A DNA stretch of 64,000 bases from Eledone cirrhosa. Taxonomy: Eukaryota. Both the position numbers and the translations under genes were made by a program. The notes beneath the pieces were generated by a model. The model saw only the letters and a list, made by a program, of their open reading frames with translations, had not been told where the DNA came from and did not search any database. Shown here piece after piece: positions 249 through 60,907 of the stretch (the stretch's first letter is position 1; each line of letters opens with the position of its first letter). Location: positions 73,532,001 to 73,596,000 of the forward strand of contig OZ024743.1 of NCBI GenBank assembly GCA_964016885.1, read 5' to 3'.

Positions 249-513
249 TAGTAGAGCACTGGTGGTTTACATCCGCACTAGTAGAGCACTCAGTCAGTGG
301 GACGAGTTTGGTAGAAGTAGTTCCACAATAAGTTAACAAACCATATTTGAGAAAATGCGTTTCTCTCGAAGAATTCTTCAACTCGTTCTTCGGGTGAAAC
401 GCTTGTTCCCAAGTATGGTTTGCTATTTTGTTGTAGAACTATCTCTATACCGAACTCATCCATTGGAGTGAGTGCACTACCGACTTTGGATATAACCCCC
501 ACGTGTTTTACCA
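249..513. mobile_element. Fold-back element in (TA)n (family A), imperfect inverted repeat 281-480
   Basis: gtagagcact(281)...agtgcactac(480) arms with centre flanked by gtttc...gaaac; related fragments at about 58148-58235 and 58975-59031. Confidence 0.6.
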
Positions 514-1930: not shown

Positions 1931-2124
1931 AACGAAGGAATTGTGGTAGGGAACCAGATGGACCATAACGCACCAGAGTACCCAATACTTAGGGTAGAAG
2001 AGTGAGTAATAGGAAAAGGTATGACCCCGACGGCAGAGCTCAAGCCGTTTCGACGGATATTTCTGAACATAAATAGCCGTCGAAACGGCTTGAGCTCTGC
2101 CGTCGGGGTCATACCTTTTCCTAT
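1931..2124 (-). mobile_element. Hairpin element family X carrying the 3' half of a Type I HHR
   Basis: Arms about 2009-2063/2070-2124; GAAA-stem III (ACGGC/GCCGT)-GTC-GGGGTC; homologues at 27791 and 58594. Confidence 0.7.
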
Positions 2125-2971: not shown

Positions 2972-3530
2972 AAGTAGTAACACAATAGTTAGTTCTCTAT
3001 ACCGAGAACAAATGTTTCACCTTGCGGATCTTCAGCTAGCTCGGACTGAGAATGGTTGTACGAACAGGAAAAGGAGAAACAACCGTATGAATACGCATGC
3101 GCAGAAACGGTCACTTCCCCCAGGCGATAAAAATCCATGGTCGAACGGTGTAAGAGAGATAACTGCGAATGTCCGGAATAAATGGTTTGAGTTGATTAGA
3201 ATATTAGAAAGACGATGTTATTTAATCCGGACCTTTGTAGTTATGCAAGAGGCTTTCCCAGACGCGTGGACAACGTGAGAAAAGCTCATTTCTTGAATTT
3301 AGGCAATCTCTATTGCGTAATCTCCTCAGAATATTGATCCTTTCTTCAATGCACAGTCCACAAGACAGATTACCCACTTGCGTATGGCGTGGACTTAGTG
3401 ATAGCTTTCCATTGGATGGAGTAATTTACACCTGAGTCTTTGAAGGACCATACGTGGCTCGCGAGTTTCGTGGACGATCGTTTGTCCGGGTATCTAAAGG
3501 GCGATGATGGTTCAGGAAACGCTCCTTATA
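2972..3530 (-). mobile_element. 5'-truncated Penelope-like element (Naiad-like): GIY-YIG C-terminus (3222-3530) plus pLTR with HHR-like core (about 3002-3044)
   Basis: Manual minus-strand translation with frameshifts: YKERFLNH..FRYPDKRSSTKLASHVWSFKD..NYSIQWK..CGLCIEE..LNSRNELFSRCP; core CTGAAGA-TCC-gcaa-GGT-GAAA. Confidence 0.8.
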
Positions 3531-3817
3531 TATATATATAAGTTCCTTATATATATATATATATATAAGTTCCTTATATATATATATATATACACACAGA
3601 ATTATAGCATTATTCAGTTTTTCTAAAACTAATCAATTAATTTAATTGAAATAGTCAAATATTACCGATCCTAGACTAGTATGTAACAGATACGATGAAA
3701 TACGTGCCATTGTTATGCAATGAATATTATTCCCATTCTTCTGGATTGATTGCGATGTTTTAAATAATAATTTGGTAAATTTCTCTCTCTCTGTATATAT
3801 ATCAATAAAGGATCGGA

Positions 3818-4644: not shown

Positions 4645-6569
4645 TCGGATAATGTCCATGAGAGAGTCCCGCTGATTCAAAACCGCTTTGGGACTCTGGT
4701 CAGTGTGTACGCTCCTACTATGTGTGCTAGTGATGATGAAAAACTAAGTTTCTACATGTCTTTGAGAGAGGTCATCCAACCTTATGCAGACAACATTGTC
4801 ATCCTTGGTGATTTTAATGCACGTGTTGGTAATGACTGGGGAGCTTGGAGTGTAATGGGCAGGCATGGAGTAGGTAAGTGCAATAACAATGGCCTACTTC
4901 TGTTGCAGATGTGCACTGAGATGGATCTTCTTGTTGGGAACACGCTCTTTCAGCAGAAAGACAAATATAAGACAACTTGGATGCATCCAGGTTCCAAGAA
5001 GTGGTACCTTATTGACTTTATTTTAACGAGAAAACGTGATATCAGGGATATCACGTTGGTTCGTTTATTGCGAGGCGCGGAATGTTGGACTGATCATTGT
5101 CTGGTGCGCGCCAAGTTTCAATTTGTTGTGAAGCCCAAAGTAAGGGGGGAAAAGGTTGCACTTCCAAAACAACTAAACATGGCTCGTCTGAAAACAGAGA
5201 AATTGATGATGAGTTCATCCGGTCGATTCCATCCAGACCTACAAAGCTGGCAATGGCTGATCCTCCTTCATTTGATGAGGTGGCGAAGGCCATTGCCAAA
5301 TTAAACAGCGGCAAGTCACCTGGAATGGATGGACTGAGTGCCGAGATTTTCAAGTGTGCTGGTGATAACTTCTTAAACCGCCTCACTGATCTCCTTGTGA
5401 ATATTTGGAAAATGTACCACAGGATTGGAAAGATGCAAGGGATCCAAAGATGACTGTGGCAACTACAGAGGTATTTCACTGTATCTGTGGCTGGGAAGAT
5501 CTTGTGCAGGATATTGTTGGACAGATTGATACAGCACATTGCTGTTGAAGTACTTCCTGAGTCCCAATGTGGCTTTAGGAATGGCAGAGGCACTGTTAAC
5601 ATGATCTTCTCGGCCAAACAACTTCAAGAGAAATGTATTGAGCAGCGCATGGACTTATACCAAGTTTTTGTCGATCTGACCAAGGCATTTGACACCGTTA
5701 ATCGGAAGGCTTTGTGGGTTATTTTGGAGAGATTGGGCTGTCCTGAAAAGTTTGTGAGCATTCTGAAACTCTTCCACGATGAAATGCAGGCATGGGTGAT
5801 GTTGGAGGTAAACTGTCTGAGCCAATCTCGGTTGAAAATGGTGTCAAGCAGGGTGATATACCTGCACCGAATTTGTTTGCCTTGTATTTCGCGATGGTGT
5901 TCTTCATGGCCTTCAAGGATTGCCAACACGGTATCTATCTCAGCATTGAGAGTATCATCCACCAACGGCGTTTGCGATGGACCGGACACCTCTGCAGAAT
6001 GGAGGATGATCGAATCCCAAAACAACTCTTGTATGGCGAGCTTTGTGAGAGTAAGAGACCACCTCACAAGCCAAAGCTCCGATTCAAGGATTGTGTTAAG
6101 GACTCATTGAAAAAAACTGGTTTGATGATGGCTGACTGGGAGATAGAAGCTCTTGAAAGAGAAACTTGGCGTGGAATGGTGAATGATGGGGTTCATAATT
6201 TTGAGGACAGACGCATAGAGCACGAGAAGATCAAACGCGATGTGCGTAAGCAATGCCCTGGTGTATCTCTCGAAACGATCGGTGTCTCCATTGAATTGAA
6301 GTGCCCTGAGTGTGGAAAAATTTGCTTGAGCAAATCTGGTCTCAGGAGCCACAGTCGCAGCCATGTCCAAGGAGAACCAGTGAACTATGATCTCCACGAT
6401 GTTGTGAGGGTTCACGGGCAACTTCATGCAGGACCTCAAATCAGAGAGATCCATAGTTGTCATCAGTGTGTGAAAGAGTGCAAGTCTCTAGCAGGCTTGA
6501 AAAGCTATATCCGAACGTCCCACATCTGAACCTGACAAGCGATTGCAGTACTCTTGGCAGAGTTTGCAA

Positions 6570-8697: not shown

Positions 8698-10500
8698 ATG
8701 GATGCCATTTCCACCTCGCACACTGTCGTGAGTGCCACGCCCACTAAGAAAAGTGGTGGAGGGAAGGTAGGAGTACAAAGCATGCAGCCTTCCCCCCCTC
8801 GCATCATCGAAAAACGTTAAAAATATCGAAACCACGAAACCAAACCCGGTAAATAATACCAGCACCAACAACAAGAACAATGACAATAACACCACAACCA
8901 ACAACTGCAACAATAGCAACACCAAGGAAAACATGAACAATATTACCAACAGTGACAGCAACAAAAAAGACAACACCAAAACAACATTCGCACAGACTGT
9001 AAAAAAAAACGAACTATACACGCCAATAGACATAACAAATGCTAAACAACTATTACAAGACGCAAAACAATTCGTGACTTTTGGCGAAAACGGTGCTTTT
9101 AGCATCAATTCTCCACAGGAATTACGTAGAGAAGCTGTCCTGAAAACTGTGGTTTTCATGACAATATCGAACGAAACAAGAAAACCAGCTCAATTATCAC
9201 AAAATGAAATTGAGCTGGTTCTAAAAGATGCAATGAAGGACTTAACCTCATACAAAAAGGTAAACTGTTTGGTAGCATTTCGGTGCTAATGAACAACCAG
9301 TCAACAGCTCAAAAGTACTCGGTATCACCCATTGTGTCCCCCCGCTTCACCTTTTTCCCCACATACAGGGGGAAAAGGACACAAAGAATAAAAATAATGA
9401 GTATCACACCAAATGTAAATATTTGGTGGATACTATGTGGAATCATTAACTTTGACGAAGACAAGATAATTTCAATAGGAAAGTCCTCCGGAGGTGTATT
9501 TGGTGGGACCACCGTAGAAGTTCTGGTGCAAATGAGCCCAGAACGAATAGCGAATATCCCACAACGCGTGCCTCTGGACAGGCTAAAATATATAAACATT
9601 TCAGTGGAGAGAAGGCGGCCGTCATGTTATCACTGCTTAAGCAGGGGTCACATGAGGGCTGCCTGTCCTCAATTAACGAGTAAAAAAAAAGGCTCTTCTG
9701 CCAACCCCGAACACAACAACACAACCACCACCACCACCACCACAACAACAACAACAACCACAACCACAACAACACGGAAAAATAACAACACAAAACACTG
9801 TTCCACCCAACCCCTCCCCACCTAAAACAAATACAAAAGCAACCACAACAAAACCCCAAAATATACCCCCCCCCAACAACACGGAAGAGGACTCCGTATC
9901 AACGTCACCCAGTGACGACGAGGGAGAACCCTTTCAACAGGTGAAAAGGAAAAAAAAAGGCACCACATTAATAAAAATGCCACAAACACACAACCACCAA
10001 CACAAACAGAACAAACATCACAAGTAAAAAGAACCACCCCTCCCCAAAACATAACACGTACTACAAAACGCAAACACGCACAAGAACAACAAACAAAAAC
10101 AAACACAACACAACAAACACTCTATACATACATTAACAAGAACAATAAAACGTTGATGAAAGCGATAGAAAATAACCCTTCGGTGGAAACCGAAGGGATC
10201 ACTTTCACGTACGCAGCGAACAAACCGCACCTAATGATGATTAGGGTCCCAACGGAAACCTATGTAACTTTGAAAAAGAACCATCCAATGCATGTGGGGA
10301 CCAACTGCACCAAACCACATAACAGCGTCCTATTGAGATGTTTCCCCACCCCCACACCAGATACCCACACCCCACCAAACAGCCTAATCCCACCACACAC
10401 TGATGTCCTCACCCCACCACAAACCACCACCCCACCAAACAACCCTTCCAACACCCCCATGGAAATTGTGCAGCCTGGTCCCCAGGAGACGAAGAGGTAA
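8698..10500 (+). pseudogene. Tx1 ORF1 (gag-like), frameshifted
   Basis: ATG at 8698; ORF pieces 8933-9289, 9283-9825 (CYHCLSRGHMRAAC = CX2CX4HX4C) and 10153-10500. Confidence 0.7.
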
Positions 10501-10542
10501 GTAATTTCCTTTCTTCTTCCTTTTTAACTCTTCAGCACCAAC

Positions 10543-13500
10543 ATGGCCAATATAAGAGTTGGATGTGTGAATGCACGCGGCTTGGGGATGTCCTGGAAAC
10601 AGGGCAAACTCTTAAATGACCTCAGGTGGCACAGAGTGGATGTAATGGTTATTTGCGAGTCCAGGGTCAGCAGCGAGCGCCAACTGGCCCCCATCTTCGA
10701 CGACTTTGAGATCTACGCATCTCTCTGTCAGCCGAGGGGTGGGGTGGGGTTGTCGGTCTGCTGCGAAAATACCTGGGTCTTGCCACACAGAAGGTACACC
10801 TGGACCCGGAGGGTCGACTGGTGGTTTTAGACGTCGGCAGTGGTGAAGGTGGAGCTTTCAGGCTGGTGGCAGCGTATGCCCCATCTGGGACACCGCGACC
10901 GGACTTCTTCCGACGCCTGGAGAATTTCCTGGGAACGTCTCGCTCCTTGCTTTTAGTGGGGGACTGGAATGGTATCCTGGATGCACGTTGGGACTATGTA
11001 GGGGCATGTCCCGATAGAGGTGGGTGTAACAGCCTCAAACAATTAATCGGCCGATTTGATCTGGCCGATAGATATCGACTAGATTTTCCGTCCGGTGGAC
11101 GTGGAGTAATCGCAGCGAAACATCTAGGTCGTACCTAGATAGGTTCCTAGTTAGAAATAAGGATAGGGACATATTAAGCTGTCCACGAATGTTCATGGTT
11201 GACTATTCGGATCACAAGTTGGTGACCGGAGTGGTCAACCTTGATAGAACTCATAGACAGGGACCCGGTTACTGGAAGCTAAACTTGTCTTTACCGACAA
11301 ACAAAGCTTACAGTAAGCGGATTAGCACACTAGTTAAGCAGTGTTTGACGGGAGCAATTGTCAACAACGGGTGGTGGGGCTCTCTCAAGAGAGAAATTAG
11401 AATAGAATCGATAGGTTTTAGTCGGGAATTAGCATCAGATAGGAATAGAACTGAAAGGGAATTAACAAATAGAGTAGAAGAGGCGATTAGGAGTGGCAAC
11501 GTGGCCGGCGTGCTGGCGTCAAGAAAGGCCCTAGACCAGTTCTTTGATGCGAAGCACGAGGGCTGCGTTGTCAGGAGTAAAATACGTGCTCTGGGTAACG
11601 AGGGAGCCAAAGCTGTTAGCTGGGCCCGAGTGACAGAGGCAAAAAGTGGAAATAAGTCCACGATTCGGTCTTTGAAGGACCAGGATGGACGCGTGATCCT
11701 TGAACCTGAGCGGATGAGCGCGGCCTTTCAACGGCGCTTTGCACGACTGTTCGGGAGGGGCGGCGGGCCGGGTGGGGCCATGGATTTCGGTCCATACCTC
11801 GACGGTCTGGCGCGGCTCTCGGACGGGGAGGCGAAGTCCTGCGAGAGGCCGATTTCAGCCGCTGAAATAGGGGAAGCGCTGAGCCAATGCGGCAAACGCA
11901 AATCTCCGGGTCTCGATGGTCTACCATACGAACTTTATGTAGCGATGCCGGGCTTGTTCTCCGGTCTCCTCGAGGCGGTCTACTGCAACTGGCAACAGAA
12001 CGGGAGAATTCCCAGTTCTGTGACCAAGGGCGTAGTCACGCTGGTGAGGCAGGACGAGAACAAGGGGGATGACATAGATAACCTCAGGCCCATAACTCTG
12101 CTAAACACAGAGTTAAAGATTTTGGCCAAGGTGTTAGCGAAGAGGTTGGCGCTTGTCGTCAGGAACCTGGTGGGAGAAGCGCAGACATGCGCAATCCCGT
12201 CCAGGTCCATACACGACAACCTCCACCTCATGCGATACATCGTAGAGAGGGTAGGGAACGAACCCGGCTTTGGTGGGGCCCTGATCAACTTGGATCAATC
12301 TAAGGCGTTCGATAGGGTTGACCATCGGTACCTGGATGCGGTGCTCGCGGCGGCAAGCTTCGGACCCGTTTTCAGGGGCTGGATTGCTGCAATGCACAGC
12401 AGCAACACCTGCTCGAGGGTCAAGGTGAACGGCTACCTCTCGGAGCCGTTCCAAATCACGCGATCCATTCGACAGGGATGCCCTCTCTCCTCCCTCCTGT
12501 ATGTGCTGGCTCTCGAGCCACTACTGCGGAAGCTGGAGCTGTTGCAGGGCATCCCCTTGGAACCGGGATTGCGGAAAGCGGTGTCGGCCTACGCCGATGA
12601 CGTGGCAGTAATGGTGTCGTGCGCCTCGGAAATCGGGCAGATCGGCACCTTACTGGAGGAATATGAAAGGTTCACAGGAGCCAAGCTGAACCGGGACAAG
12701 TCCGTCGGCTTGCAACTCGGGACGTGGAGGGGCAAAACGATGCCCTCCGACGGCATCGTCGGATGCTGGACAGAGGGACCGGTGAAGCTGCTCGGACCTC
12801 CAGGTGGAGAAAAACTGGGACGAGGTAACGGGCAAGGTCTTTGCACTCGCCCAGAAGTGGGCCGAGTGCAAACTATCTCTGAAAGGTCGAGCGGATGTGG
12901 CGAACGCTTATATAGCGTCCGTCATTTACTACCGCTTGACCGTCGTGCCTTGCCCAGAGAAAACACTCGCCAAAATGGAGCGCGCGCTCTTCCGATTTCT
13001 TTGGAAGAAGCGGGCTCCTTTGTTGAGAAGATCCATCTGCTGTCAACACCCTTCGAACGGAGGGCTGGGGATACCATGGCTGACGATGCGTAGACACGCA
13101 TTAAGGCTACGGCACCTCCAGGTATTCCTCACCGGTCAGCCGGTGTGGACCCTGTTTGTGAGGCGAGCCTTTCCGAGACTCGTCTCACTCACCGAGCTGC
13201 AATCCTGGGTCAAGCAAAGACCGAGAAAAGTGGGCGACTGGCACATTGAATGTGCCCAAGCACTCACGGTCCTCTGGCAAGCGGATCCGGCAATCAGTGG
13301 AGACTCAACCTCAACATCTATAGAGGGTTGGTGCGCAGTAAGTGCTACGACGCTCTCGGAGAGGCTGTGGGCATGGAGGAAGACGAGCTGTCCAGTCTGT
13401 TCGGTAGGACGTTTGGCCCGGGACCGATGGACAACTTCCAAAAGTCCCTGGCTTGGCAATTGTATCGAGGAGCTCTACCCGTTCGGGACAAGCTCTACAG

Positions 13501-13954
13501 ACACGGGTGCCCGGGTAGGGACCCCTCGAAGAAGATCTGTCCAAGATGCGTTCGTGACGAGGAAACCGTCGCACACGCATTCGTACACTGCCCGGGCGGT
13601 GCTGACCTGTGGGGCTATGTAGAACGACTACTGTCGCGGGTGGGACCAATCCGGTTGACCACCAAGAACATTGTCACGATCAAACCGCCTCCCCCTTTCA
13701 AAAACGAAGGAGAGGCGGTTTTCCTCTGTGTGATAGCCATGGCGAAAGAAGTTGTATGGTGGACAAGGTTGAAAGGGCTGAGGTCAGACACCTTTCTCTC
13801 CGGCCAACAACTGGTCCTTTTTTTCAAGTACCACTTTAGAAGAAGGATCAGAATGGAGAGAGGGGTGCTCTACCCCAGCAAGTTTTATGAAAGATGGGTG
13901 AAAGTAGCGAGAATGGTCCGAGTGAATGGGCCTTCTCTCTATATCAGCCTGTAG
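10543..13954 (+). pseudogene. Tx1 ORF2 (APE endonuclease, reverse transcriptase, zinc-binding tail), frameshifted
   Basis: NARGL, ICES, YAP, GDWN, SDH; KSPGLDGLPYE, RPITLLN, LDQSKAFDRV, RQGCPLS, YADD; CPRC..ETVAHAFVHC. Confidence 0.93.
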
Positions 13955-22038: not shown

Positions 22039-22837
22039 AAAAGGTAACACACTAGAGAGAGACAGTGCGCCATCAATAAAACAGGGAAAAACCACCAGTG
22101 TATGGAATCTATTACCTATGAAAGGCAGAGTAGACACACGATAATTAAAAATATAAATTAAAGTGTAAATACATACCTCTATAACTATATAACACACGTA
22201 CAAATCCAAAGAGATCTGTTTCGCCAGGAAGTTGTTGACAGAAATGAAATAGCCCATGGTTCATCAGCGTGTGTAAGGCCATACATTTCAGACAACTCTA
22301 AGAGAATTTAAAGCGACCGTCCAGCTACACGTGGGAGAGAGATGTCACAGCGTGTTTAGGGCAGTGAACCAGTGGCTTCTGAGGGACGAGCTGCTAGAAA
22401 GGGCAGGCCAAAACCACTCAGAGAAGTGTGCTCAACCAAACAGAGAGAGAGGAAAGACTGTTATAAGGAGCAAAATATCAGGATAAATTAACGGAGCCAT
22501 AGACTCTCCCTATTCCCTGTCAATAATGTACTCAAAGGAGAAGGAATCCTGATATCTTTAAAATACAATATGTTGAAAAGGTAACACACTAGAGAAAGAT
22601 AGTGCGCCATCAATAAAACAGGGAAAAACCACCATTAATTATCGTGTGTCTACGCTGCCTTTCATAGGTTATAGATTCCATACACTGGTGGTTTTTCCCT
22701 GTTTTATTGATGGCGCACTATCACTCTCTAGTGTATTACCTTTTCAACATATTGTATTTTAAAGAGCTCAGAATTCCTTCTCCTTTGAGCACATTATTGA
22801 CAGGGAATAACGAGAGTCTATGGCTCCGTTATTTTAT

Positions 22838-22840
<3 letters not shown>
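22036..22840 (-). mobile_element. ORF-less HHR element: 537 nt unit with terminal redundancy and a 5' inverted segment
   Basis: ttgaaaaggtaacacactagag at 22036 and 22573; 22634-22840 is the reverse complement across the unit junction. Confidence 0.8.
22192..22274 (-). ncRNA. Type I hammerhead ribozyme with full stem III
   Basis: ACACACG-CTGATGA-aCCA...TGGc-GAAA-CAGATC-tctttg-GATTTGT-A-CGTGTGT. Confidence 0.85.
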
Positions 22841-22889
<49 letters not shown>

Positions 22890-27790: not shown

Positions 27791-27966
27791 TGAAAATAGT
27801 CAGGACCCCGACTGCTGAGCTCTGGCCGTTTCGACAGCTCTGTCGAAACGGCCGGAACTCAGCCGTCGGGGTCCTGACTCTTTTCCTATTACCGACTCTA
27901 CTACCCAGTATCGAGTACTCTGGTGCGTTATGGTCCACCTGGTTCCTTACCACACTTCCTTCGTTA
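27791..27966 (+). mobile_element. Family X hairpin element (3' half HHR)
   Basis: gtttcgacag-ct-ctgtcgaaac centre; ACGGC/GCCGT stem III; GTC. Confidence 0.7.
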
Positions 27967-40782: not shown

Positions 40783-40820
<38 letters not shown>

Positions 40821-40826
<6 letters not shown>

Positions 40827-41216
40827 TAAACGGAATAGAAAATGCTGACAAATTGTTCACAGTTGAAAAATGGTTTAATTAGGAATAAAAGAGTATTAGT
40901 GATTGTATGGGTTAGTATTCAGTTGTGGTTTTAAGTTTTTAAGTTTTTACCGGTTGCGCATTTCTAAATGCTTTTCAAAAATAATTTTGAGATAGAGTGT
41001 CCGTGCTGTTTGCTCTGATCAGAGCAGACAGCACGGACACTCTATCTCAAAATTATTTTTGAAAAGCATTTAGAAATGCGCAACCGGTAAAAACTTAAAA
41101 ACTTAAAACCACAACTGAATACTAACCCATACAATCACTAATACTCTTTTATTCCTAATTAAACCATTTTTCAACTGTGAACAATTTGTCAGCATTTTCT
41201 ATTCCGTTTACCAATA
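40821..41216. repeat. Spacerless palindrome (about 198 bp arms) carrying U3-A8 HHR-like motifs
   Basis: Centre tgatca at 41016-41021; ttt-TTGAAAA-GCAT..ATGC-GCAA-CCGGT-A-aaa at 41056-41092; partial copy at 36613-36832. Confidence 0.88.
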
Positions 41217-41249
41217 TATAATAACTTGTGTGTTACACCTCTATTCTTT

Positions 41250-45856: not shown

Positions 45857-45948
<92 letters not shown>

Positions 45949-45955
<7 letters not shown>

Positions 45956-46300
45956 ATTAACAAATGGAAACTATATTTATAAAACCATATTTATTTCATT
46001 ATACATATTTCAAGGACACCAAGTTAAATTATGGTGTGCTTTCATAAGATAAAATATAATATAGATCAGTTTTATAAATAAATATTGACATACCCTTAAA
46101 AAATGCAACCGTTACTGTTGGAAGCTTCCAACAGTAATGGTTGCATTTTTTAAGGGTATGTCAATATTTATTTATAAAACTGATCTATATTATATTTTAT
46201 CTTATGAAAGCACACCATAATTTAACTTGGTGTCCTTGAAATATGTATAATGAAATAAATATGGTTTTATAAATATAGTTTCCGTTTGTTAATATCGTAT
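45949..46300. repeat. Spacerless palindrome, about 175 bp arms, in (TA)n
   Basis: Centre ggaagcttcc; only a few mismatches. Confidence 0.9.
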
Positions 46301-46384
46301 TTTTACCCCAAATATTTGTTGAGTGCTTTATATCAGTTATAAAAATATTTGCTAGTTGTATCCCAACAATTTAAATAGAACTTT

Positions 46385-58593: not shown

Positions 58594-58803
58594 TAGCGAA
58601 GGAAATGTGGTAAGGAACTAGGTGGACCATAACGCACCAAAGTACTCAATACTTGAGGTAGTAGAGTGGGTAATAGGAACCAGTAAGACCCCGACAGCTG
58701 AGCTCAAGCCGTTTGTTTCGACGGCTAATTCTGGACTAATTTAGTCCAGAATTAGCCGTCGAAACGGCTTGAGCTCAGCTGTCGGGGTCTTACTGGTTCC
58801 TAT
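58594..58803 (-). mobile_element. Family X hairpin element (3' half HHR)
   Basis: Centre ggactaa-t-ttagtcc; ACGGCT/AGCTGT stem III, GTC, GGGGTC. Confidence 0.7.
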
Positions 58804-58924: not shown

Positions 58925-58977
<53 letters not shown>

Positions 58978-59537
58978 GTTAGAGCACTTAATCAAGAGGA
59001 CGAGTTCGTTATAGAGTTAGTTCCACAACAATATATATATGTGTGTGTATGTATGTGTATGTGTTTGTGTGTGTTGAGATAGATAGATTGAGAGTTTGGG
59101 AATAGTTATCAGACAAATGATAAGTGATCATAACCCCCACTATGACCTTCATATACAGTGATTCTGTCCAGCCTGAGACCAGACAGAAATATGACCGTAG
59201 GTGTGGGGCAAAGGGGTAGGATTAGCCGTGGGGTGAGGTTTCGCCCGCCACAGATTCTCAAAAACGTCTCCCTAAAATGTATTGCCCGTCTTGTTTCCGT
59301 TTGTATCAAAAGTTGGTGGGATCTAATCACTTCCGATCAACGAACAGGGTGTTAGGGTCAGCTATAAAACAGTAAAACTTTTATTTAGTAGGAGATTATA
59401 GAGGGAACATTGATGTGATGTGGGAGTGAGAAAATATATATAGGAGTGAAGACAGTGATAAGGAATGTGAGGAAAGATGTGAGTTTGGAGGTTAGAGGGA
59501 AGAATAAAGGATATTCATGTATGTTAGTGGGTGAACA

Positions 59538-60590: not shown

Positions 60591-60907
60591 ATATACATAT
60601 ACATATATACATATATATAAGACGTTTAATATAGAAATGGGTTCTACAGAATTAGGACTCTTTCATTCAAAATGTGATTTCTTTTGAATGAAACATTTCT
60701 ACTAGACATTTCTATATTAAACTTGTATTACGTACCTTACCGTGGTTACTCCTGATTGAACCTGGGAGACACACACAGAAACACACACACTCATATATAT
60801 ATATATATATATATATATAATGGAAAATTTGAACAGGAACAAGACAGAGAGGCAGTACAACGAGTGTTTATTAATTTCACGCTCTTGAGAGTGGGGTGGT
60901 GGTGGGG

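What the first reader, a model, noticed from the sequence alone, without database searches (positions are those of the whole stretch)
1931..2124. Hairpins repeatedly turn back inside hammerhead stem II
All three family X copies (1931, 27791, 58594) keep GAAA-stem III-GUC-stem I 3' strand but lack the CUGANGA strand, which is replaced by an inverted duplication centred just 5' of GAAAC. Loop sequences differ, suggesting separate events, and the short arm ends near cctat at the (TA)n. Similar centres occur at 281-480, 60660-60695 (family W) and possibly 2723-2843. Inference: nascent cDNA snaps back on stem II and self-primes second-strand synthesis, a candidate mechanism for PLE inverted 5' ends that also destroys the ribozyme.
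Basis: partly seen in the sequence, partly recalled or inferred. Interest (0 to 1): 0.75.

Follow-up and report, generated by a model that had tools for sequence, protein, structure and literature searches.

The report
Fold-back tails of a Penelope element
These small hairpins are broken tail ends of a known kind of jumping gene (a Penelope-like element) that sit in TA repeats as two back-to-back copies, and their many different turning points, which cluster inside the element's hammerhead-like RNA motif, likely mark where copying of the RNA stopped rather than a DNA strand snapping back on that motif.

Summary
All three copies are lopsided hairpins in (TA)n that keep GAAAC, stem III, GUC and the 3' strand of stem I, and have no CUGANGA box. 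Genome-wide, 17,810 such hairpins exist (control 0).

I found the parent: the last ~150 nt of a 3.5-kb coding Penelope-like element, with a 794-aa ORF and tandem 3,531-bp arrays. Its tail carries the missing half. The box is mostly UUGANAA (U3-A8), a variant already published for PLE hammerheads. Helix II has three compensatory pairs.

Turning points are not uniform: 66 of 92 long arms end 8-19 nt 5' of GUCGAAAC, at the distal edge of helix II. Apexes are independent: 97 distinct among 110.

Snap-back on stem II is poorly supported:
- The 5' strand of stem II is never used (0 of 26).
- The tail-less arm is the longer one in 14 of 57 mini-hairpins and in a kb-scale fold-back.
- Only 1 of 67 hairpins has the tail on both arms.

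Two cDNAs joined head to head fit better. This is the published PLE pattern (inverted 5'-truncated copy, tail at one end) in miniature. Earlier notes of this scan reported the same pattern elsewhere in this genome.

The parts
1931..2008 (-). Copy 1: ~80-nt tail (called U' here), present on one arm only; the element's 3' end (..CGTT) abuts (TA)n at 1931
   Evidence: collinear with the last ~80 nt of the coding element in L089 and of the tandem unit in L194
2009..2068 (-). Copy 1: tail-bearing (long) arm. Reverse complement of CCTAT..GGGG | GTC, stem III, GAAAC and the 3' strand of helix II, reaching -14
   Evidence: same coordinate system
2069..2070 (.). Copy 1: junction (AT) between the two arms
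   Evidence: the same junction is shared by several genomic copies
2071..2124 (+). Copy 1: tail-less (short) inverted arm. AAATAGCCGTC, GAAAC (2082-2086), stem III and GAGCTC loop (2087-2101), GTC (2102-2104), GGGG.., ending CCTAT at (TA)n
   Evidence: (no Rfam hammerhead)
27792..27837 (-). Copy 2 (subfamily P3): tail-less inverted arm, outer end at (TA)n
   Evidence: P3 parents
27838..27839 (.). Copy 2: centre (CT); both arms stop at -2, at the base of helix II
27840..27965 (+). Copy 2: tail-bearing arm (27840-27889, ends CCTAT) plus tail U' (27890-27965, ends CGTT)
58594..58739 (-). Copy 3 (subfamily P1): tail U' (58594-58672) and tail-bearing arm (58673-58739), reaching -17
58740..58740 (.). 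Copy 3: single-base centre
58741..58803 (+). Copy 3: tail-less inverted arm, reaching -17, ending CCTAT at (TA)n

Best explanation
Family X copies are the last ~150 nt of an abundant 3.5-kb Penelope-like retrotransposon, sitting in (TA)n as two head-to-head 5'-truncated copies; the two arms were likely made as two separate cDNAs primed from the two sides of the target break, and both likely stopped at the same RNA end or pause site at the distal edge of helix II of the element's hammerhead-like motif.

Shown:
- The parent element and its hammerhead-like tail.
- The two fixed outer ends. CGTT follows an ~80-nt tail on one arm, and CCTAT closes the other arm at the end of stem I.
- The clustered but individually different inner ends.
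- A second, sharper peak of arm ends exactly at the predicted ribozyme cleavage site.

Inferred:
- Each 3'-OH of the cut (TA)n primes on a UAU-containing site of the RNA.
- Both cDNAs run to a common stop.
- One cDNA then jumps onto the 3' end of the other and copies it, which closes the break and leaves 0-20 nt of filler.
- The stop at -14/-15 would be the 5' end of a short RNA or an RT pause. I could not tell which.

Because the stop lies 3' of the catalytic box, the products have no ribozyme and no upstream sequence, so most are probably dead on arrival.
For: Parent element:
- L089 holds a 794-aa ORF (YRDDG..VIYQ..AYIGLT.. near the C-terminus, read by eye) followed by a ~1.07-kb 3' UTR that ends in the family X module.
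- A search with a 274-aa piece of the ORF gave 58,334 first-look candidates.
- Tandem units of 3,531 bp exist.

Hammerhead-like tail:
- The box region gives 7,501 hits. In the first 100 it reads UUGANAA 76 times, CUGANAA 23 times and something else once, with A at position 8 in 100 of 100 and any base at position 7.
- The canonical CUGANGA form was found at 12 related loci.
- With the hammerhead structure, 91.2% of 513 cells pair, against 24-44% when the partners are slid. Three helix II pairs change on both sides.

Clustering of the inner ends:
- 66 of 92 long arms end between -8 and -19, with modes at -15 (17) and -14 (12).

Independence of events:
- There are 97 distinct apex strings among 110 oriented hairpins.
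- Arms of one copy are 92.0% alike, against 85.9% for arms of different copies.
- Of 70 typed copies, 42 have the identical 9-mer in both arms, in 10 types. Four of those types are also seen among 39 box-bearing long copies.

Two cDNAs rather than one:
- Of 57 usable mini-hairpins, the long arm is longer in 24, the tail-less arm is longer in 14, and the two are equal within 2 nt in 19.
- L079 has 1.55-kb arms, and a 583-nt centre continues only the tail-less arm. Both outer ends abut (TA)n and no TA repeat lies at the junction.
- By BLAST coordinates alone, L086 pairs a tail-less arm running from unit 3451 to 744 with a tail-bearing arm covering only 3322-3531.
- Only 1 of 67 hairpins has the tail on both arms.
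- Apex fillers include poly(A)/poly(T).

Run-off at a defined RNA end is seen elsewhere in the element:
- Fold-backs centred at GACCCC|GGGGTC number 98 (control 1) and 113 (control 0).
- In 33 of the first 50, both arms end with the full G4/C4 run, that is at GUC|G.
Against: - Rare end points coincide in both arms more often than independent stops predict: -16/-16, -17/-17, -18/-18, -11/-11 and -8/-8, five among 57. That fits copying of one arm from the other, or two run-offs on one RNA.
- The commonest junction, TTC|AGTCCA|GAA, has the long arm complete and the other arm starting 6 nt back. It occurs 8 times among 110 and is what a snap-back with a 6-nt loop would give.
- Eleven copies share a mismatch at -9 between the two arms. 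In nine the variant sits on the tail-less arm, and in two (identical unplaced contigs) on the tail-bearing arm. So some hairpins seem to multiply as hairpins.
- Why one arm always has the tail and the other never does is not explained by simple two-ended priming.
- No RNA data could be had, so the cause of the -15 stop is open.
- Rfam finds no hammerhead even in box-bearing copies.
- The minimum-free-energy fold is not the hammerhead fold (z = -0.82).
- Pfam finds no domain in the ORF.
Confidence: 0.5

Rival explanations
1. First reader's model. One cDNA is primed at the 3' end, stops in stem II, folds back on itself and primes copying of its own strand. The copy would then end at CCTAT by TA microhomology with the target.
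For: - Arms of one copy are co-derived.
- Many apexes are near-perfect palindromes with 0-6 nt loops.
- The commonest junction leaves a 6-nt loop on the tail-bearing arm.
- Long-arm-longer cases (24) outnumber the reverse (14).
- Rare end points are mirrored.
Against: - The 5' strand of stem II is never part of the hairpin: 0 of 26 P1 copies. So stem II pairing does not nucleate the turn.
- In 14 of 57 hairpins the tail-less arm has parental bases that the tail-bearing arm lacks.
- L079 has a tail-less arm ~580 nt longer than its partner, and by BLAST coordinates L086's is ~2.5 kb longer.
- The stop of the copy at CCTAT in 66 of 67 copies has no cause in this model.
Confidence: 0.2
2. The hairpin is an inherited unit. 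One or a few pre-formed hairpin masters would be transcribed and re-inserted as hairpins, and the apex would be remodelled each round (RT skipping the tip of a 60-bp RNA hairpin) or later by palindrome instability in DNA.
For: - All 40 scored loci match the whole 194-nt unit.
- Eleven copies share an arm-specific mismatch at -9 yet have different apexes.
- Asymmetry occurs in both directions.
- Some apex strings recur 2-4 times.
Against: - Ten tail variants are mirrored in both arms. Four of them, plus subfamily P3, match tails of box-bearing coding or long copies. A hairpin evolving as DNA would not mirror substitutions.
- kb-scale fold-backs of the same element follow the same two-end rule.
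- Chimeras join the same break region to unrelated sequence.
- The copies carry no upstream sequence that could serve as a promoter.
Confidence: 0.15
3. Not a retroelement product: a TA-targeting DNA transposon (MITE), or an assembly artefact at palindromes.
For: - The copies sit at TA repeats and have a hairpin shape.
- Other perfect palindromes lie in the window.
Against: - The outer ends are not inverted repeats, because the tail is on one side only.
- The module is the 3' end of an RT-coding element.
- Read-derived contigs of four runs cover the arms at very high depth. Depth drops about 100-fold at the apex, as expected for real, diverse apexes. The runs may be from the assembly's own sample.
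Confidence: 0.04

Closest known systems
Insertion units of endonuclease-positive Penelope-like elements (Craig et al. 2021, PMC8557442; I read passages and section 11)
   Same: - Strong 5' truncation, partial tandems (pLTR), and an inverted 5'-truncated copy at the 5' end.
- An extension ('tail') at one end only.
- (TA)n targeting, and a hammerhead in the terminal repeat.
- All are seen here.
   Different: - Here the arms are usually only ~60 nt, and the break has a hot spot inside the ribozyme. The unit therefore looks like a ~190-bp hairpin repeat with >17,000 copies.
- The tail is ~80 nt, not 30-40.
- The paper gives no mechanism.
PLE hammerhead variants (Cervera and de la Pena 2014, PMC4209133; passages read)
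   Same: - Type I motif in the terminal repeat.
- Long helix II (7-8 bp) and short helix I (4-5 bp).
- Unpaired base(s) at the 5' end of stem II, and a palindromic loop 3.
- The U3-A8 core covariation they report for Schistosoma Cercyon.
- They also note paired motifs on opposite strands 100-700 bp apart.
   Different: - Helix II here is capped by a ~33-nt loop with a conserved UUAGUYC stretch.
- Helix III has 5 bp.
- Activity was not tested here.
Twin priming of L1 (Ostertag and Kazazian 2001; recalled, not read)
   Same: Both 3'-OH ends of the target would prime reverse transcription, and the two cDNAs would be joined head to head.
   Different: L1 twin priming gives an inversion without duplication, from two parts of one RNA. 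Here both arms copy the same 3' region, from two different start points.
Self-primed ('snap-back') second-strand synthesis by reverse transcriptases in vitro (recalled)
   Different: It predicts that the second arm is always a subset of the first. That was not met in 14 of 57 copies or in L079.
Animal non-LTR retrozymes (Li, Clavereau and Pollet 2026, bioRxiv 10.64898/2026.07.22.740005, abstract read; Cervera and de la Pena 2020, recalled)
   Same: Small non-coding derivatives of PLE terminal repeats.
   Different: Retrozymes are tandem units with a complete ribozyme. Family X copies are dispersed single fold-backs without the catalytic box.

Membership tests
Penelope-like element, C-terminal GIY-YIG type | Single ORF with RT followed by a GIY-YIG endonuclease | tested here: inconclusive
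   The 794-aa ORF in L089 shows YRDDG, and ..VIYQ..AYIGLT.. near the C-terminus, read by eye. Pfam gives no family at E<=1. No phylogeny was made.
Penelope-like element, C-terminal GIY-YIG type | Partial tandems (pLTR), inverted 5'-truncated copy, tail at one end | tested here: met
   Tandem 3,531-bp units. Upstream partial copies and fold-backs in L079, L086, L088, L089 and L091. The tail is on both arms in only 1 of 67 hairpins.
Penelope-like element, C-terminal GIY-YIG type | Insertion bias for microsatellites, here (TA)n | tested here: met
   All three window copies are flanked by TA repeats. So are nearly all fetched loci. A few lie in (GA)n.
Hydra clade of PLEs (Craig et al. 2021, section 11) | DKT instead of DKG; CxCX5C linker; no CCHH in the EN; <3 kb; canonical HHR; (TA)n | tested here: inconclusive
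   - DKT is present (..SDKTGN..), and so is (TA)n targeting.
- The linker reads CNC..(11 aa)..CRDC, not CxCX5C as written.
- Cys and His residues lie within the GIY..YIG core, so absence of CCHH is unclear.
- The unit is 3.5 kb.
- The HHR is mostly the U3-A8 variant.
- Earlier notes of this scan file it under Hydra. I did not test that by a tree.
Hammerhead ribozyme, type I (PLE variant) | Core boxes CUGANGA / GAAA / UH in the right order around three helices | tested here: inconclusive
   In the parent the order is helix I (CCCC/GGGG), box, helix II, GAAAC, helix III, GUC. The box is YUGANAA in 99 of the first 100 of 7,501 hits (UUGANAA 76, CUGANAA 23, other 1). The canonical form occurs at 12 related loci only. 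U3-A8 is a published covariation (PMC4209133).
Hammerhead ribozyme, type I (PLE variant) | Helices supported by covariation | tested here: met
   Helix II has three pairs changed on both sides between subfamilies. Overall 91.2% of cells pair, against 24-44% in slid controls. These are few lineage-level events. Helices I and III do not covary.
Hammerhead ribozyme, type I (PLE variant) | Match to Rfam hammerhead models | tested here: not met
   No hammerhead family appears at E<=10 in the window copy or in the box-bearing copies L074, L077 and L089.
Hammerhead ribozyme, type I (PLE variant) | Self-cleavage after GUC | not testable with these tools
   Indirect only. Fold-back arms end exactly at GUC|GGGG in 98 and 113 loci (controls 1 and 0). 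Both arms do so in 33 of the first 50.
Family X copies themselves as hammerheads | Presence of the catalytic box | tested here: not met
   There is no box in the three window copies. The 75 genomic hits to CTGANGA within 45 nt upstream are chance, apex filler or chimeras.
Non-LTR retrozyme | Tandem small units, each with a complete ribozyme | tested here: not met
   The copies are dispersed single fold-backs lacking the box.
MITE / DNA transposon | Terminal inverted repeats at both ends and a target-site duplication | tested here: not met
   The outer ends differ: AACGAAGG.. on one side and ..TTCCTAT on the other. The tail is on one side only.

The most novel reading that the evidence does not exclude
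Both ends of the cut (TA)n target prime reverse transcription on the Penelope RNA at two different start signals, one with and one without the ~80-nt tail. The >17,000 mini-hairpins are run-off pairs at the 5' end of a short sub-genomic RNA that starts at a conserved UUAGUYC motif inside the ribozyme's loop II. A smaller class of fold-backs ends exactly at GUC|G and is a genomic record that a U3-A8 hammerhead cuts its RNA in vivo. Together they would give a readable natural archive of how Penelope-like elements integrate.
Probability: 0.3. Interest if true: 0.7.

Novelty: new member of a known kind. Interest (0 to 1): 0.5.

Why it matters
How Penelope-like elements integrate, and why they leave inverted copies and a one-sided tail, is stated as unknown in the main paper on them (PMC8557442).

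This genome holds tens of thousands of minimal insertion units whose two outer ends and two inner ends can each be read to the base. The joint distribution of those ends can tell snap-back from two-ended priming without any bench work.

The sharp class of ends at the predicted cleavage site also offers indirect evidence that a PLE hammerhead with the U3-A8 core works in vivo.

For annotation, such ~190-bp hairpins in (TA)n should be filed as PLE tail fold-backs. They are not MITEs, microRNA-like hairpins or new ribozyme-free repeats.

Tried and rejected
- Rfam at permissive thresholds on the window, on copy 1 and on box-bearing parents gave only microRNA-type hairpin noise.
- The CTGANGA pattern next to GAAAC gave 75 hits, none a canonical hammerhead on this stem II. 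The box was found only after long copies showed that it lies ~60 nt further 5'.
- The minimum-free-energy fold of the parent tail is not the hammerhead fold (z = -0.82).
- Pfam on ORFs near the tail and on the full ORF gave no hit.
- RNA evidence: no RNA holder is listed among the public runs. The four runs are contigs only, so no RNA starts or ends could be read.
- Parent of the 281-480 hairpin: the pattern hit only the window itself.
- A splice-acceptor reading of UUUAG|UCC was rejected, because the arms start at A-15/G-14 and carry no shared upstream exon.
- A TATA/Inr reading of the -15 stop: the motif fits the Inr consensus as I recall it, but a TATA-like box at the right distance is seen only in one subfamily. 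I kept this as a possibility, not a finding.
- Upstream partial copies of full-length elements do not start at -15, so the full-length RNA does not need to start there.
- An origin of the shared -9 mismatch in the 5' strand of stem II was rejected, because in three copies the same arm runs on into GGACT, not into loop II.
- First alignment-based parses over-ran the palindrome centre and were replaced.
- Eleven subfamily-P3 copies of the 92 could not be placed on my reference, and most of the 10 'ends' at -5 are of this kind.

Full report
**1. What is at the coordinates.**
Reading the three sites confirms the description. Each copy sits between TA repeats. One arm runs on into an ~80-nt tail that ends ..CGTT at the repeat. 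A shorter inverted arm stops at CCTAT at the repeat.

I number positions with the G of GTCGAAAC as 0, minus being towards the 5' end. On that scale:
- GTC then GAAAC occupy 0 to +7.
- A 5-bp stem III around a loop containing GAGCTC follows.
- GTC ends at +25.
- A G4 run starts at +26.
- CCTAT ends at +45.

Copy 2 turns at -2. Copy 3 turns at -17 on both arms. In copy 1 the tail-bearing arm reaches -14 and the other -8.

No CTGANGA is present. Rfam gives no hammerhead at copy 1 even at E<=10, and none appears among the 150 best of 332 matches shown for the window.

**2. It is a huge family, and the hairpin is part of the unit.**
- The 194-nt copy 1 gave 3,514 first-look candidates in the 3.0-Gb genome. 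All 40 scored loci match the whole unit at 91-100%.
- A pattern across the turn (AGCCGTTTCGAC, up to 90 nt, GTCGAAACGGCT) hits 17,810 loci, against 0 for the reversed control.
- Read-derived contigs of four public runs cover the arms at summed word depths of 4-7 x 10^5. The apex words of copy 1 reach only about 2 x 10^3. So the diversity of apexes is in the reads as well, though the runs may come from the assembly's own sample.

**3. The parent.**
I took an oriented sample of 92 tail-bearing arms using a pattern that fixes only an A 76 nt upstream. The loci L092-L183 were fetched. A few arms run on into a shared upstream sequence.

Following that upstream sequence led to copies with a CTGAGGA or CTGAAGA box ~60 nt 5' of GAAAC: 12 related loci of 13 hits. 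It then led to a coding element:
- L089 has a 794-aa open frame with YRDDG and, near the C-terminus..VIYQ..AYIGLT.. (read by eye).
- A ~1.07-kb 3' UTR follows, and its last ~230 nt are: stem I 5' strand, box, helix II, GAAAC, stem III, GUC, stem I 3' strand, CCTAT, tail, CGTT, (AT)n.
- A 274-aa piece of the ORF gave 58,334 first-look candidates.
- Head-to-tail arrays with a 3,531-bp period exist.
- Pfam finds nothing in the ORF, so the RT and GIY-YIG assignment rests on motifs read by eye and on architecture.

**4. Is the hammerhead real?**
The box region (CC NN GA NN A G N TCGGCTAT) has 7,501 hits. In the first 100:
- The 7-mer is UUGANAA 76 times, CUGANAA 23 times and UAGAAAA once.
- Position 8 is A in 100 of 100.
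- Position 7 is G 58, A 18, C 12 and U 12 times.

Free variation at exactly the N of CUGANGA, with U3 paired to A8, is the covariation that Cervera and de la Pena reported for Schistosoma PLE hammerheads (PMC4209133, passages read). That paper also describes a long helix II, a short helix I, unpaired bases at the 5' end of stem II and a palindromic loop 3, and all are present here.

A third subfamily (P3, which includes copy 2) has a different helix II sequence. On an alignment of 27 parents the hammerhead structure pairs 91.2% of 513 cells, against 24-44% when the partners are slid. Three helix II pairs change on both sides. These are few lineage-level events, and helices I and III do not covary.

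Against the hammerhead reading: Rfam does not see a hammerhead even in the box-bearing copies, and the minimum-free-energy fold is a different one.

**5. Where the hairpins turn.**
Helix II's 3' strand is -8 to -1 (plus GUC). The long arms of the 92 sampled copies end as follows:

| Position | Count |
|---|---|
| -15 | 17 |
| -14 | 12 |
| -9 | 9 |
| -19 | 6 |
| -11 | 6 |

In all, 66 of 92 lie between -8 and -19. Three run much further (-47 and at least -80). Most of the 10 scored at -5 are P3 copies that my reference does not fit.

So breakpoints are sharply clustered at the distal edge of helix II. They fall in the most conserved stretch of the otherwise variable loop II, UUAGUYC (invariant and near-invariant columns).

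Among 110 oriented hairpins there are 97 different apex strings.

Arms of one copy are more alike (92.0%, n = 60) than arms of different copies (85.9%, n = 300). Of 70 copies typed by the 9-mer after GGGT, 42 have the same 9-mer in both arms. These fall in 10 types, and 4 of the types are also present among 39 box-bearing long copies.

The breakpoints are not uniform, box-bearing copies exist, and the copies do not all descend from one hairpin.

**6. Snap-back on stem II, or two cDNAs?**
Four results speak against the literal model.
- (a) In subfamily P1 the parental 5' strand (GGCTATTC) differs from the complement of the 3' strand (GGCTAATTC). The inverted arm has the latter in 23 of 26 copies and the former in 0 of 26 (3 are truncated). 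Stem II pairing is therefore not what turns the strand.
- (b) Of 60 hairpins with both anchors, 3 were unusable. In the remaining 57, the tail-bearing arm is longer by 3 nt or more in 24. The tail-less arm is longer in 14 (12 if two duplicated loci are counted once). They are equal within 2 nt in 19. A copy cannot contain parental bases that its template lacks.
- (c) The same rule holds at kb scale. In L079 the arms are 1.55 kb, and a 583-nt centre continues only the tail-less arm. Both outer ends abut (TA)n and no TA repeat lies at the junction. By BLAST coordinates alone, L086 pairs a tail-less arm running from unit 3451 to 744 with a tail-bearing arm covering only 3322-3531.
- (d) The outer ends are fixed. 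Only 1 of 67 hairpins (L124) has the tail on both arms. Box-bearing long copies end at CCTAT in 5 of 11 and at CGTT in 6 of 11. At least two of the CCTAT-ending copies are arms of larger fold-backs.

This matches the published PLE picture of an inverted 5'-truncated copy with a tail at only one end (PMC8557442, Fig. 2 legend and text passages).

The simplest reading is this. Both 3'-OH ends of the cut (TA)n prime on UAU-containing sites of the RNA (..CGUU|AUAU and ..CCUAU|UA). Both cDNAs run to a stop. One cDNA then jumps onto the other's 3' end. Fillers at the junction, including poly(A)/poly(T) runs, fit template jumping. So do chimeras in which the same break region is joined to other repeats or to unique DNA (although that sample was biased to breaks within 45 nt).

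**7. What speaks for the rivals.**
- Mirrored rare end points (-16/-16, -17/-17, -18/-18, -11/-11, -8/-8) and the commonest junction TTC|AGTCCA|GAA are what a copy-back would give. They could also be two run-offs on one RNA.
- Eleven copies share a mismatch at -9 between the two arms while differing at the apex. In nine the variant is on the tail-less arm, and in two (identical unplaced contigs) it is on the tail-bearing arm. Some hairpins therefore seem to have multiplied as hairpins.
- Two-ended priming alone does not explain why one arm always has the tail and the other never does.
- Earlier notes of this scan propose a hairpin signal just 3' of both ends. I found only modest similarity between the 45 nt after CCTAT and the 45 nt after CGTTAT (local score 22 against 13.4 +/- 2.8; 23 of 2,000 shuffles score as high).

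**8. A second hot spot at the predicted cleavage site.**
Fold-backs centred on GACCCC|GGGGTC occur at 98 loci (control 1). In one subfamily, with a pattern that also allows neighbouring centres, they occur at 113 loci (control 0). In the first 50 of the latter:
- Both arms end with the complete C4/G4 run in 33.
- One arm does so in 14.
- Ends a few bases either side are rare.
- Short fillers lie between the arms.

Arms thus end exactly at GUC|G, as expected if some template RNAs had been cut by the ribozyme. By analogy, the main stop at -14/-15 may also be an RNA 5' end. RNA starting there lacks the box and could not cut itself.

I could get no RNA data. The conserved UUAGUYC fits the initiator consensus as I recall it, but this is a lead only.

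**9. Comparison and verdict.**
This is the known architecture of endonuclease-positive PLE insertions in its smallest form, with a known kind of PLE hammerhead variant.

Clade assignment to Hydra (earlier notes) is open:
- DKT and (TA)n targeting fit.
- Unit length, the linker spacing and the Cys/His pattern do not clearly fit.

Beyond the papers I read, three things appear new:
- The hot spot inside the ribozyme.
- The very large number of readable junctions.
- The end class at the cleavage site.

My one search for a mechanism in print (the terms Penelope-like, twin priming, snap-back, template switching and inverted repeat) listed no paper that treats PLE fold-back formation. That is one search, not proof of absence.

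Earlier notes of this scan describe the same fold-back pattern on other windows of this genome.

Noticed in passing
G000-wide; e.g. C1:349988179-349988202, C3:18007281-18007304 (rows): Fold-backs of the same element whose two arms both end exactly at the predicted hammerhead cleavage site (GACCCC|GGGGTC). They occur at 98 and 113 loci (controls 1 and 0). This is indirect evidence that the U3-A8 ribozyme cuts in vivo.
   Followed up: partly
Parents, e.g. L089:100-224 (minus strand); alignment A1 columns 74-83: A UUAGUYC..GA stretch in loop II is the most conserved part of the loop across three subfamilies. It coincides with the modal arm end (-15/-14). It resembles an initiator element as I recall the consensus.
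   Followed up: partly
L004, L009, L012, L013, L015, L017, L018, L021, L026, L179, L183; window copy 1 at 2069-2072: A subfamily shares a mismatch at -9 between the two arms while having different apexes. In nine copies the variant is on the tail-less arm, and in L179/L183 it is on the tail-bearing arm. This suggests that some hairpins are themselves copied again.
   Followed up: partly
L032, L042, L057 and rows C4:80380509, C4:376630297, C6:10764373: Another repeat that ends ..TTTCACTGAGGAACTG is fused to the family X tail at a different point each time. It looks like template switching onto a second RNA.
   Followed up: no
C1:4947012-4947074, C1:18731493-18731563; L031: Runs of 13-18 A or T sit at the apex between the two arms.
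   Followed up: no
window 40817-41220, 45944-46305, 22475-22845: Other long palindromes lie in or next to (TA)n. One has 202-nt arms, 100% complementary with no spacer. The first family also flanks L052 and L069. No GAAAC lies at their centres.
   Followed up: no
window 4645-6529 and 9214-13954: Two non-LTR retrotransposon remnants (Exo_endo_phos_2 and RVT_1; RVT_1 and zf-RVT). The first ends directly at a (TA)n run (6575).
   Followed up: no
window 249-300 and 58971-59030; unit start in L194: The motif TAGTAGAGCAC at the ends of the 281-480 hairpin resembles the first 30 nt of the 3.5-kb unit (..CCCGTAGTAGAGCAC..). 'Family W' may therefore be the 5' end region of a related element.
   Followed up: no
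L093 and L094 (C1:205.33 and 205.67 Mb); L179 and L183 (unplaced contigs C315, C1625): Identical hairpin loci occur twice. They are segmental or haplotig duplicates, and they slightly inflate counts.
   Followed up: no
unit 3452-3496 versus unit 1-45 (L194): The sequences just 3' of the two alternative ends are modestly alike (local score 22; 23 of 2,000 shuffles score as high), and each can form a small hairpin. Earlier notes read this as a start signal.
   Followed up: partly
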